Below, piece after piece: positions 27,001-30,000 of a stretch of 64,000 nucleotides of DNA. The DNA lies in contig CAWIBO010000002.1 of the NCBI GenBank assembly GCA_963834385.1, positions 512,001 through 576,000 on the forward strand, written 5' to 3'. The DNA is from an uncultured Verrucomicrobiae bacterium. GTDB taxonomy: Bacteria > Verrucomicrobiota > Verrucomicrobiia > Chthoniobacterales > UBA10450. The position numbers are program-made. Within the stretch, counting starts at the first letter, position 1; each line of letters opens with the position of its first letter.

Positions 27001-30000
27001 ACTCGCTCGTGATGTCGCCCGGCCCCACATCCTCGGCCAAGGCCGCCGAGACGATTCCGGCGGTGCCCTGTCGTTTCATGCGCGCACGCGCGGGGCCCGG
27101 TAGACACAGGCGCCGCGCACGTAGGTCTCCAGCATGGCGCGGGGACGCGCGCGATAAATGCAAAGGGCCACCACGTCTTCCGCGGAAAGATTCTTCAACG
27201 GCTCGGTATTGTTTTCCCGGTAAGGCAGGAGCGGCGGCAGATCGACCACGATAAAGTCAGCTTCCTTGCCGGGATCGAGGGTGCCAATCCGGTCGAGCTT
27301 GCCAAGGGCGCGTGCTCCCCCGGCGGTGGCGAGGTGCAGGGCCCCGGCGGGACGCAGGGTGGCAAGGTTCGGCTCGTAGAAAGAGCGCGCCTTTTGCGCA
27401 TCGATGGCGGAACGCATCACCTGCCACATGTCGAGCTCGGGCCCGGCGGCCACGTCGGAGCCGAGGCCGACGGCGATGCCGGCCCGGAGCAGTTGGTCGA
27501 GCTTCATCAGACCGCTCCCGAGGAAGAAATTGGAGGTGGGGCAATGCGCCACGCTCGATTGCGCGGCGGCGATGGCCCCGATCTCACGCGGGTTCAGGTG
27601 AATGCAATGGCCCAGCATCGTCTTCGGCGTGAGCAGGCCGCACTTCTCGTAGACGTGGGTGTAGTCGCGCGCCCACATGTAAAGATGATGCACCTTCTCG
27701 ATCTCCTCCCGGTTTTCCGCGAGGTGGGTCTGGAGATAAACGCCCAGACTGAGGGCCGCCTCCGCCGCGCTCCGCATCAGTTTTTCCGAGCAGGTCACGG
27801 CAAACCGCGGACTGAAGGCGTACTCGAGCCGGCCGTCGGCCGCTCCGTGCCATTTTTTGCAGAGTCGCTCGCTTTCCATGAGCGAGACGGAGAGGATTTT
27901 CTTGGGTTGGAGCGTGCCGTAGGACCCGAGGTCCATCATCATCTTGCCGAGGATGACACGGAGTCCGCTCTCCTTCGCGGCCTCGAACGCCACCTCGCAG
28001 CTTTCCTCGTAAATGGCGGCGTAAACCATCGCGGTGGTGGTGCCGTGCCGGGCCAGTTCGCGGAAGAACTGCGGCGCCTCCTCCCGTGCCTTGGGGGCGC
28101 TGAATTCCTTTTCCACCGGGAAAATGTGCTGACGCAGCCAGGGAAGCAGGTCGCTCTCGCCCCGCGCCACCACCGGGTATTGCGGGAGATGGGTGTGACA
28201 ATCGATCAGTCCCGGGAAAATCGCCACCGGACCACGGTCGATCCATTCCACCGGGCGATCACGGGGCAGCCGGCGGAGATCATCGTAAAACCCGACCTCG
28301 GTGATGCGGCCGTTCTCCACCACCATGGCGCCGTTGCGCCAGCTCCGGAGGGCGCCCAGCTCCGGGGCGTCGATTAGATAGCCGCGGATTCCGTAAAGCG
28401 AGGGCTGCTCCATGAGCACTTCACTCAAACATTAACCGGAGGGGCCTGACAATGTCCGAGTTAGGGGAAGGTCGAGGGCAAAAAAAAGATTCGGGCAGCG
28501 CACGCCAAGGAGAAACAACAAATACTTTGAACGTGCAGCTACCCGAATCGCCTTAACCTGACTCATTTGACAGCCCGCCCGGCACCCCGTTCGAATTTTT
28601 CATAACAATTTTCAGGGTTTTTTCGGGGGGGCCCGCTCAGGGTCCCCGGTAGGGCGAGACTCCGTCGAGCCTGGGGGAAGAGCCAATGGCTCTCAGAAGA
28701 CAGGATTAACAGGAGGGACAGGATTCCTAGGCAAGGGAAGAAAATGTTCCAGAGGGCAGAGAGCGTCTGAAGTGATGGCGGCGCGTGCTCCCAGGCTCCG
28801 CGGAGCGTCGCCCTACCGAAGAGGCGCACGCATACACGATTCACCATTTACGACTCCACCATTCACGCCACTCTCCCCCCCGGTAGGGCGAGACTCTGTC
28901 GAGCCTGGGAGAGGGCGTGGCCCCGCCACCAAGCTGCGGCGCGTGCTCCCAGGCTCCGCGGAGCGTCGCCCTACCGGAGAGGCGCCCCGCGGGGCAGACC
29001 CCCTAAAGGGAAAACTCCGCCTGCGCCGGGCGGGCCACCCGGGCTGACTCGTCCCGGACTTCCTGCAGGAGGGACTTGAACTCGCATTTCTCCAGCGTCT
29101 CGAGCAGGCGCGGATAATCAGGCGTGATGCGAAGGTCGTCGATTGGCACCGGGAGCGGGGTCTCACAATCAAGCGCAACCATCCGGCGGTTCTGCCGGAT
29201 TTGCTCCTGCGCGGCGCGCAGTTTCTCGCGGGTCTTTTCGCTCTTGATCCGGTCGAGGTTGGCCAGGAGTTCGTCCAGGCTGCCGTGCTCGTTCAGGAGC
29301 TTGGCCGCGGCTTTCCGGCCAATCCCGACGCCGGGAATGTTGTCGACCGAATCACCGGCCAGGGCGAGGACATCGCCGATCCGCTCCGGCGGCACGTCCC
29401 ATTTGGCCTTCACCTCGGGTTCACCCAGCAGGGCGAAACCCGTCCTTGGGCGAGGCGAGGTCGGCCTTGGCCGTGCTGTAGACTTTCACCGTCGGACCAA
29501 CCAGTTGAAAAAGGTCCTTGTCGTTCGTGGCCAGCACGGTCTCGATTCCGCGGCGGCTGGCGGCCAGGGCGTAGCATCCCATCAGGTCGTCGGCTTCCGT
29601 GTTCGGCAGGGCAATGTTCCGAAAACCCATTTCCGGCATCATGCGCCGGATAAAATCGAGCTGCGGCACCATCGGAGCCGGCATTTCCTTGCGCGTTTCC
29701 TTGTAGGCCGGCTGCAGCTCAACCCGTTTCTGCGGCAGACCTTGATCCCAAAAAATCGCCCCGAGATCGGGCTGAAGATGTTTCAGCATCAGGCGCAGCG
29801 TCTTGGTGAAGCCGAAGATGGCGTTGGTCGGTTCGCCGCGTGAATTGGAGAGGTTCTGGATCGCGAAGAACGAACGGTAAACGTAGTAATGACCGTCAAC
29901 GAGAAGCAGCTTCACCGGGTTCACGTTAGCGAAAGGGAGCGCCGCGCCAACTGTGATCAGGCCGCTCGCTCGCTCTTTCTTTCCGTCATCCCGAGGCGCA

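What a model noticed while it worked through the whole genome (the two positions that open the first line are those of the whole stretch)
29003..29924. Stand-alone Pol I-derived 5'-3' flap nuclease ends in a conserved beta-clamp-binding motif (bacterial FEN1-PIP analogue) [...]
The genome has no Pol I polymerase domain. Its solo 5'-3' nuclease ends in QAEFSL, and the solo nucleases of Pol I-less relatives end in QGELF-type beta-clamp motifs. A like motif sits in the linker of full-length Pol I of the phylum, so the enzyme looks like Pol I cut just behind a clamp-binding site, tethered to the clamp as FEN1 is to PCNA.
Evidence so far: No DNA_pol_A in G000; 15 of 121 order genomes have any match, only 3 at full Pol I strength. 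A Q-x-[ED/x]-[LF]-[FL] motif lies at or near the C-terminus of 26 of 28 solo FENs of the order and of 8 of 14 from other Pol I-less families, with 3 more degenerate. QGDLF, EGDLF or GQLDL occur in the linker of full Pol I proteins. Complex prediction of own DnaN with FEN residues 97-136: score 0.61, best control 0.00, runs agree in at least 96% of contacts, partner pLDDT at least 65; the contact is FEN 128-136 in the clamp pocket. The same C-terminal scan picks MutS, DinB and PolB.
(Added by a program. Inside this text positions count along the whole contig: contig position 512,001 is position 1 of the stretch shown here. "Call 12" and the like, gene names such as g00115 and contig names such as C1 are that model's own, and its searches are not shown. 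The text may have been shortened before it was handed on; [...] marks where a part breaks off. The agent that wrote the report below was given it as the finding of a first reader that could run no searches.)

Follow-up and report, generated by a model that had tools for sequence, protein, structure and literature searches.

The report
Clamp-tethered flap nuclease replacing Pol I
Many Verrucomicrobiota bacteria lack DNA polymerase I and carry a stand-alone primer-trimming nuclease that ends in a likely sliding-clamp docking motif, often alongside a family-B polymerase, a set-up that looks like the archaeal and eukaryotic way of finishing the lagging strand.

Summary
Observation confirmed. The two ORFs are one 306-aa FEN-family 5' nuclease, split by one extra base that is probably an assembly error. 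It ends in QAEFSL. A Q-x-x-hydrophobic tail sits in the last 12 residues of 109 of 126 solo FENs across the phylum, against 0 of 126 adjacent windows, 0 of 5 paralogues and 25 of 2689 genes of this genome. Clamp binding is inferred: my complex prediction gave only weak support (0.60, controls 0.00). 'Pol I cut behind the motif' could only be one ancient event: solo FENs form one clade apart from the phylum's Pol I. New here: a G3-type family-B polymerase occurs in 89 of 117 genomes without a full-strength Pol A domain and 0 of 84 with one, over about 15 switches on an RpoB tree. Best reading: a clamp-tethered FEN removes primer flaps while PolB or DnaE fills in, as in archaea. Against: 28 of 201 genomes have neither polymerase, and outside the phylum both co-occur. 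Solo FENs replacing Pol I in Verrucomicrobia are already published; the FEN motif and the PolB/Pol I exclusion were not found in eight searches.

The parts
29003..29924 (-). Stand-alone Pol I-type 5'-3' exo/flap endonuclease gene, 306 aa when read through
   Evidence: matches Taq Pol I residues 13-285 at E 4.7e-44
29421..29924 (-). N-terminal half as assembled (PF02739); holds D10, D60, E110, D112, D113, D135, D137
   Evidence: the matching acids are invariant in 38 phylum-wide solo FENs
29435..29438 (-). One extra base after codon 162; +1 frameshift, probably an assembly error
   Evidence: 120 of 120 homologues intact; NAD ligase of the same assembly is also split between frames; not tested by reads
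29003..29413 (-). C-terminal half as assembled (PF01367 H3TH/SAM fold with D191, D194, last helix and tail)
29024..29047 (-). Short linker (residues 293-300), variable in its second half; much longer in some relatives, motif Q at position 282-396
29006..29023 (-). C-terminal hexapeptide QAEFSL (residues 301-306), putative beta-clamp-binding motif; family consensus Q-x-E-L-x-L, QGELF elsewhere in the order

Best explanation
The gene encodes the cell's lagging-strand 5' flap nuclease, doing the job of the Pol I N-terminal domain in a bacterium with no Pol I. Its last six residues, on a flexible linker, plug into the hydrophobic pocket of the beta clamp (DnaN) and hold the nuclease at the nick, as the C-terminal PIP box holds FEN1 on PCNA. 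A separate clamp-bound polymerase extends the upstream fragment and displaces the primer. In most Pol I-less members of the phylum, including this genome, the likeliest candidate is a G3-type (Pol epsilon N-like) family-B polymerase, which often has its own C-terminal clamp motif; DnaE is the fallback where PolB is missing. Shown: fold family, intact catalytic residues, motif conservation and position, no Pol A domain found, PolB/Pol A complementarity. Inferred: binding, the Okazaki role and PolB's part in it.
For: Motif counts and controls. The motif stays 5-10 residues from the C-terminus while its Q moves from position 282 to 396. The same scan picks 16 of 2689 G000 genes, 8 of them DNA-metabolism proteins such as MutS (QLDLL), DinB (QLPLL) and PolB (QATLKL) (names other than PolB and FEN are my recognition of the sequences). 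DnaE has QASLF at 912. DnaN aligns full length with solved clamps. Complex model: 0.60, best control 0.00, runs agree in at least 90% of contacts, partner pLDDT at least 56; the mark was reached by 116 of 157 solved and 2 of 215 mismatched pairs, but at 0.60 or under by only 18 solved and both mismatches, and it may reflect likeness to solved clamp-peptide structures. PolB in 89 of 117 genomes without and 0 of 84 with a full-strength Pol A domain (37 expected); the same 89 with my own profile. Pol A changes state 15 times on a 72-tip RpoB tree; of 11 independent pairs PolB goes the opposite way in 7-8 and with Pol A in 0 (sign test p about 0.008). Seven genomes with a Klenow-like polymerase and no FEN next to it (6 in family f35, 1 in f28) lack PolB, while 9 of 17 f35 and 25 of 32 f28 genomes have it. 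No RNase HI found in G000.
Against: No binding or activity data. 17 of 126 solo FENs miss the motif, 5 of 7 in family f14. 28 of 201 phylum genomes and 71 of 151 order genomes have neither PolB nor a full-strength Pol A domain, so PolB is dispensable. Only 12 of 27 PolBs have the tail motif by my pattern. Outside the phylum this PolB family co-occurs with Pol A in 2 of 3 records checked, and all Chlorobi carry G3 PolB (PMC12926913). FEN and PolB genes are not neighbours (about 45 kb apart in G000). B. subtilis FenA does not dwell at the replisome (PMC12724664), and T4 fragment maturation depends on gp32 more than on the clamp (title of a reference in PMC3012046). I chose the tree tips after seeing the states. 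Most genomes are incomplete MAGs.
Confidence: 0.65

Rival explanations
1. The tail does bind the clamp, but DnaE does the routine strand displacement and RNase HIII much of the primer removal. PolB and Pol I exclude each other only because both fill repair gaps, so PolB has no special lagging-strand role.
For: Whole families lack both polymerases (f4, f5, f7, f14: 0 of 41 with PolB). B. subtilis DnaE does strand displacement and works with FEN when Pol I is deleted (PMC13082043, abstract and discussion). G000 has an RNase HII/HIII-family gene. The G000 PolB has lost its proofreading acids, which fits a repair enzyme.
Against: It still needs PolB and Pol A to be functional substitutes (0 of 84). 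PolB is kept in single copy with a tree like the species tree and intact proofreading in most lineages, as a housekeeping enzyme would be.
Confidence: 0.2
2. The tail is conserved for another reason (binding to a different protein, or folding back on the nuclease) and only resembles a clamp motif.
For: The second motif position is G/S/A rather than the L of QL[SD]LF (consensus recalled). The model pass is weak and gave no contacts. Several lineages lack the Q or the whole tail.
Against: The invariant Q with hydrophobic residues at +3 and +4 or +5 is the clamp-motif pattern; both pentamer (QGELF) and hexamer (QSELxL) forms occur; the tail floats on linkers of very different length; known clamp partners in the same genome use like tails.
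Confidence: 0.1
3. The copy in this genome is a real pseudogene and the second FEN paralogue on contig C5 has taken over.
For: The frameshift is in the assembly and reads could not test it. A second PF02739 gene exists.
Against: Both halves keep all catalytic residues and about 79% identity to intact relatives. LigA is split too. The paralogue is patchy, sits on a long branch and has no tail motif.
Confidence: 0.05

Closest known systems
Stand-alone bacterial FENs (B. subtilis FenA/YpcP, mycobacterial FenA, E. coli Xni; solo Exo5-3 of Pol I-less Tenericutes and Verrucomicrobia)
   Same: PF02739 + PF01367 fold and carboxylate set. PMC12926913 already states that many Verrucomicrobia lack PolA1 and encode a stand-alone FEN-like exonuclease.
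   Different: No clamp motif is reported for them in what I read: PMC12926913 names one only in PolA2 among A-family proteins, and PMC10191290 has 0 occurrences of 'clamp'. FenA and Xni sit beside a Pol I; this one replaces it.
Archaeal and eukaryotic FEN1-PCNA with PolB / Pol delta and ligase
   Same: Stand-alone FEN with a clamp motif at the C-terminus on a flexible tail (FEN1 layout as in PMC3012046); family-B polymerase as partner (Thermococcus needs PolB, Fen1 and ligase: PMC4432273 abstract).
   Different: The nuclease is of the bacterial Pol I branch, the clamp is dimeric DnaN, the motif is a beta-clamp motif and not a PIP box, and PolB is G3-type and dispensable. An analogy, not orthology.
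T4 RNase H - gp45
   Same: FEN-family primer-removal nuclease that binds its clamp through a short peptide (PMC3012046, passages).
   Different: Phage system; the motif is N-terminal; the clamp is PCNA-like gp45.
Clamp motifs in A-family polymerases: M. tuberculosis Pol I 457-QLSLLDD-463; actinobacterial PolA2 QxxLF
   Same: Shows that Pol I-family proteins can bind DnaN through a canonical motif (10.64898/2026.09.19.751633; PMC12926913).
   Different: Those motifs lie in the Klenow part, and the Mtb 5' nuclease domain alone does not bind. The Verrucomicrobiota motif lies right behind the nuclease domain, in the solo FEN and in 20 of 41 Pol I linkers.
Bacterial G3 family-B polymerases (EpsilonN-like clade)
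   Same: Motif C glutamate (E-x-DTDG) is invariant in 16 of 16 aligned sequences, the synapomorphy given in PMC7544198; about 730 aa; clamp motif as noted in PMC12926913.
   Different: Both papers leave G3 uncharacterized, and in the sections read neither links it to loss of Pol I.

Membership tests
Pol I-type 5'-3' exo/flap endonuclease (bacterial FEN) | PF02739 N domain plus PF01367 H3TH domain | tested here: met
   E 7.5e-44 and 7.5e-29, both over cut-off
Pol I-type 5'-3' exo/flap endonuclease (bacterial FEN) | Full set of active-site carboxylates | tested here: met
   D10, D60, E110, D112, D113, D135, D137, D191, D194 conserved in over 97% of 120 homologues; aligned to Taq Pol I
Pol I-type 5'-3' exo/flap endonuclease (bacterial FEN) | Flap endonuclease / 5' exonuclease activity | not testable with these tools
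   needs an assay
DNA polymerase I | Fused DNA_pol_A domain | tested here: not met
   Stop after residue 306; no PF00476 in G000; homologues 302-333 aa; 274.7 bits against a cut-off of 720 for NF004397
NCBIfam solo 5'-3' exonucleases (PRK14976) and Xni | Curated score cut-offs | tested here: not met
   167/305, 147/347, 145/434 and 123/261 bits
Beta-clamp-binding proteins | Conserved Q-x-x-L-F pentamer or Q-x-x-L-x-L hexamer in a flexible, often terminal segment | tested here: met
   the consensus patterns are recalled, with QxxLF as given in PMC12926913
Beta-clamp-binding proteins | Physical binding in the DnaN pocket | tested here: inconclusive
   Model only: weak support, 0.60 vs 0.00, no contacts given
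Truncation product of the phylum's own Pol I | Solo FENs nested in, or sister to, resident Pol I nuclease domains | tested here: inconclusive
   Not nested: separate clades in three trees. Sisterhood not rejected, p-AU 0.63. The named best full-length hits are from other phyla at about 40% identity.
Archaeal/eukaryotic FEN1 (XPG/Rad2 branch) | XPG-type domains and PIP box | tested here: not met
   Pfam gives only PF02739 and PF01367; PDB sequence hits are bacterial Pol I, FenA-like and Xni proteins
G3 PolB (partner gene, outside the window) | Glutamate before DTDG in motif C; intact polymerase motifs A-C | tested here: met
   feature from PMC7544198 section 14
G3 PolB (partner gene, outside the window) | Placement in the EpsilonN-like clade with reference G3 sequences | not tested
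   no reference G3 sequences fetched; far below E. coli Pol II cut-offs
G3 PolB (partner gene, outside the window) | Intact 3'-5' exonuclease | tested here: inconclusive
   ExoI-III acids present in most of 27 sequences; clearly lost in G000, L207 and L209

The most novel reading that the evidence does not exclude
The ancestor of Verrucomicrobiota finished Okazaki fragments without Pol I, using a three-part clamp tool-belt like archaea and eukaryotes: a Pol epsilon N-like G3 PolB for strand displacement, a stand-alone FEN docked on the beta clamp by its C-terminal motif, and ligase. Pol I later spread sideways into ten or more lineages and each time displaced both genes. This would give G3 polymerases their first function and be a case of whole-pathway non-orthologous displacement in bacterial replication.
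Probability: 0.35. Interest if true: 0.87.

Novelty: new variant of a known kind. Interest (0 to 1): 0.68.

Why it matters
How about half of a large phylum, including abundant soil Chthoniobacterales, matures its lagging strand without Pol I is an open question: the 2026 survey notes the loss and the solo nuclease but not how it is recruited or what fills the gap. The conserved tail gives a direct test (peptide binding, tail deletion), and the PolB/Pol A exclusion points to a function for the uncharacterized G3 polymerases that are related to the catalytic half of Pol epsilon. The motif in Pol I linkers also suggests that Pol I-clamp docking reaches beyond Mycobacteriales and PolA2.

Tried and rejected
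Reads across the frameshift: three soil runs held only 8-16% of the words and no listed piece bridges 29435-29438, so no verdict. Repeated truncation of each lineage's own Pol I: rejected, solo FENs are one clade (0.94; SH-aLRT 89). A distant origin for the solo clade: not shown either. Chance motif: rejected by three controls. Missed divergent PolBs in Pol I genomes: my profile added only one weak partial hit, G315 at 2.9e-12 over 149 of 743 positions. Operon link: the neighbours are a NirDL-like gene, an amidohydrolase, a QRPTase and a biotin-ligase-family gene, none in replication. Clamp motif in the separate Klenow-like proteins: no convincing terminal motif. A regex inventory of replication genes was too noisy and was replaced by Pfam searches. 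Plasmid and phage searches gave only ordinary Pol I or distant exonuclease hits and were not followed. Cluster look-ups gave no useful taxonomy for short representatives, so the reach of the solo clade outside the phylum is unknown. Mollicute solo FENs were not examined. Three look-ups in earlier scan findings returned nothing.

Full report
THE GENE. The finding spans two minus-strand ORFs, 29421-29924 (167 aa) and 29003-29413 (136 aa). They match PF02739 and PF01367, the two halves of the Pol I 5'-3' nuclease. Skipping one base at 29435-29438 joins them into 306 aa ending QAEFSL. The 120 best homologues listed, of 5465 scored, are 76-81% identical single proteins of 302-333 aa, and the named ones are Chthoniobacterales, Spartobacteria or Verrucomicrobiota. 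The residues around the break are conserved in them. The NAD ligase of this assembly is also split between frames, so an assembly error is likely. Public runs did not bridge the site. All nine active-site acids are kept, and the protein aligns to Taq Pol I 13-285.

POL I IS MISSING. PF00476 has no match in G000 (89.6% complete). In a sample of the order, 16 of 151 genomes match and 3 do so at full strength, while 144 of 151 have the nuclease domain. In a phylum sample, 93 of 201 match and 84 do so at full strength. This much is known: PMC12926913 (abstract, passages, sections 23 and 24 in full, two supplement searches on a file that was cut when stored) says a significant fraction of Verrucomicrobia lack PolA1 and encode a stand-alone FEN-like enzyme.

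THE TAIL. Among the 120 homologues, Q301 is in 120, E303 in 115, L/F/M304 in 120 and L/I/F306 in 116, while the five residues before it are 23-42% conserved. I took solo FEN genes from 127 genomes, picked across families from the listed matches. One was a Pol I fragment at a contig end and was dropped; five distant paralogues, one second copy and one other Pol I fragment were kept out of the count. Of the 126, 109 have Q-x-x-[LFM]-[FL] or Q-x-x-[LFM]-x-[LFI] in the last 12 residues: 60 of 67 in the order, 49 of 59 outside. The Q lies 5-10 residues from the end although its position runs from 282 to 396. Controls: 0 of 126 for the preceding 12 residues, 0 of 5 paralogues, 25 of 2689 predicted G000 genes. 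Of 17 misses, about half end in DLF/SLF-like remnants; 5 of 7 in family f14 have no tail motif. A slightly stricter scan picks 16 of 2689 genes; by my reading of the sequences 8 are DNA-metabolism proteins: MutS, ImuA, a radical-SAM lyase-like protein, this FEN, PolB, DinB, RuvB and a DUF72 protein (only FEN and PolB were confirmed by Pfam). DnaE has QASLF at 912 and DnaN aligns end to end with solved clamps.

BINDING. I refolded own DnaN with residues 84-136 of the second ORF, both as alignments. Score 0.60, best of 3 controls 0.00, contacts agree in at least 90%, partner pLDDT at least 56; verdict weak support. The mark was reached by 116 of 157 solved and 2 of 215 mismatched pairs, but at 0.60 or under by only 18 solved pairs and both mismatches. 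No contacts were given, and likeness to solved clamp-peptide complexes may explain the pass. The case for binding therefore rests on conservation.

ORIGIN. A like motif lies within 55 residues behind the nuclease core in 20 of 41 full-length Verrucomicrobiota Pol I (14 by a strict pattern) and 13 of 119 other Pol I, against 5-6% of control windows; it is absent from families such as f44, f31 and f42. The 13 of 119 is only about twice background, and its clear cases are a QGELF group that includes a Gemmataceae-labelled protein. Solo FENs form one clade apart from the resident Pol I clade in three trees and roughly follow the RpoB tree. The named best full-length hits of the window protein come from other phyla at about 40% identity. 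So the enzyme is not each lineage's Pol I cut short. An AU test on 44 rows does not reject solo FENs and resident Pol I as sisters (p 0.63, and the constrained tree scored higher), so a single old truncation behind the motif stays possible, as does convergence.

WHAT REPLACES THE POLYMERASE. In the same 201 genomes PF00136 matches 89. None of the 84 genomes with a full-strength Pol A domain has it, against 37 expected, and 89 of the other 117 do. A profile from 16 of these PolBs finds the same 89 plus one weak partial hit in a Pol I genome. In the order, 77 of 151 have it and the three Pol I genomes do not. Kin are not independent, so I built an RpoB tree of 72 genomes (75 requested, 3 without a match; chosen by me to cover families and contrasts). 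Pol A changes state 15 times; of 11 independent pairs on supported branches, PolB differs the opposite way in 7-8, the same way in 0 and not at all in 3-4 (sign test p about 0.008). Seven genomes hold a Klenow-like polymerase with no nuclease gene beside it, six in f35 (where I read the solo FEN tail in five) and one in f28; all seven lack PolB, while most of their relatives have it. The PolB has intact motifs A-C and the motif C glutamate that PMC7544198 (passages and section 14) gives as the mark of the G3/Pol epsilon N clade. Its tree of 27 sequences follows the species groups. The Pol I tree mixes them, for example f3 with f40 and f15 with f18, which suggests sideways spread of Pol I; differential loss from an ancestor with all three genes is the alternative. 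G000's PolB (contig C2 585886-588102, outside the window) ends QATLKL and has lost its proofreading acids.

AGAINST. 28 of 201 phylum genomes and 71 of 151 order genomes have neither polymerase; f4, f5, f7 and f14 have no PolB in 41 genomes. Only 12 of 27 PolB tails match the motif. Outside the phylum, 2 of 3 records with this PolB family also have Pol A, and PMC12926913 reports G3 in all Chlorobi. B. subtilis DnaE can displace primers and work with FEN without Pol I (PMC13082043, abstract and discussion), and B. subtilis FenA does not dwell at the replisome (PMC12724664, passages). The FEN gene has no replication neighbours.

MECHANISM. Shown: fold, catalytic residues, tail conservation, no Pol A domain found, PolB complementarity. 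Inferred: the tail docks in one pocket of the DnaN dimer left on a finished fragment; a polymerase on the other pocket, PolB where present and DnaE otherwise, lifts the primer; FEN cuts the flap; LigA seals. G000 has an RNase HII/HIII-family gene and no RNase HI match. I put the tail-clamp interaction at about 0.85, the whole model with PolB as the usual partner at 0.65 in a loose sense (replication or repair), and the strong ancestral-pathway version at 0.35.

COMPARISON. It works like FEN1-PCNA with PolB (PMC4432273 abstract; PMC9690074 passages; PMC3321178 search listing only) but is a bacterial Pol I-type FEN, not a FEN1. T4 RNase H binds gp45 through an N-terminal motif (PMC3012046, passages), so clamp-tethered FENs are known outside cells. 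In bacteria, clamp motifs are reported in the Klenow part of mycobacterial Pol I, where the nuclease domain alone does not bind (10.64898/2026.09.19.751633, first of six parts and passages; supplements closed), and in PolA2 (PMC12926913). PMC10191290 (passages) has no occurrence of 'clamp'; PMC10201439 (passages) added nothing. Eight searches found no report of a clamp motif on a bacterial solo FEN or of PolB/Pol I exclusion. The library lacks most subscription papers, and the cut supplement of PMC12926913 may hold per-genome tables that show the pattern.

VERDICT. A real, well-conserved feature; a new variant of a known kind; binding untested. The PolB link raises its value. Interest 0.68.

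Noticed in passing
G000 C2:585886-588102 (L210), outside the window: G3-type PolB ending QATLKL with polymerase motifs intact but ExoI and ExoIII acids lost; the same loss in L207 and L209, so proofreading was dropped more than once in the order.
   Followed up: yes
L187-L193 (G270, G224, G183, G264, G203, G320, G180): Klenow-like Pol A proteins with no nuclease gene beside them, in genomes without PolB. 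The six f35 proteins carry an N-terminal domain of about 150 aa with no Pfam match in the one scanned.
   Followed up: partly
window 28644-28985: Two copies of a palindromic REP-like element just downstream of the FEN gene; 129 blastn pieces in the genome, some in clusters.
   Followed up: partly
window 50074-54755: Second DnaE (PF07733) with two upstream ORFs that look like imuB and imuA by position (recalled, not scanned); another ImuA-like gene with a C-terminal QTGLDL lies on C1.
   Followed up: no
G000 C2:661561-663354: NAD-dependent ligase gene broken across frames, a sign of indel errors in this assembly.
   Followed up: partly
G000 C3:281086-282084, C2:332768-333889, C5:272482-273360: RuvB-like (QEQLL), radical-SAM lyase-like (QMSLL) and DUF72-like (QGRLF) proteins also end in clamp-type motifs; names recalled, conservation not checked.
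   Followed up: no
P0139, P0145, P0159, P0167, P0215, P0217, P0229: A group of Pol I proteins, one labelled Gemmataceae, has Q-x-E/D-L-F in the nuclease-Klenow linker, so the linker motif may extend to Planctomycetota.
   Followed up: partly
L100, L223 (G328, f26); L104, L224 (f29); family f14: In f26 and f29 the FEN and PolB sequences read both lack the tail motif; f14 mostly lacks the FEN motif and has no PolB in 15 genomes.
   Followed up: no
G000 C5:298973-299806: Second, distant FEN paralogue (277 aa) without tail motif, patchy in the order.
   Followed up: partly
L385 / L309 (G348): A record titled Candidatus Binatia has this PolB family, a nuclease frame that stops after 305 aa without a tail motif, and no Pol A match; may be a second Pol I-less case outside the phylum or an assembly gap.
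   Followed up: no
G007, G070, G089, G091, G213, G257, G295: A-family domains at about 1e-80 in frames of about 1500 aa, probably mobile primase-polymerase fusions; not counted as Pol I.
   Followed up: no
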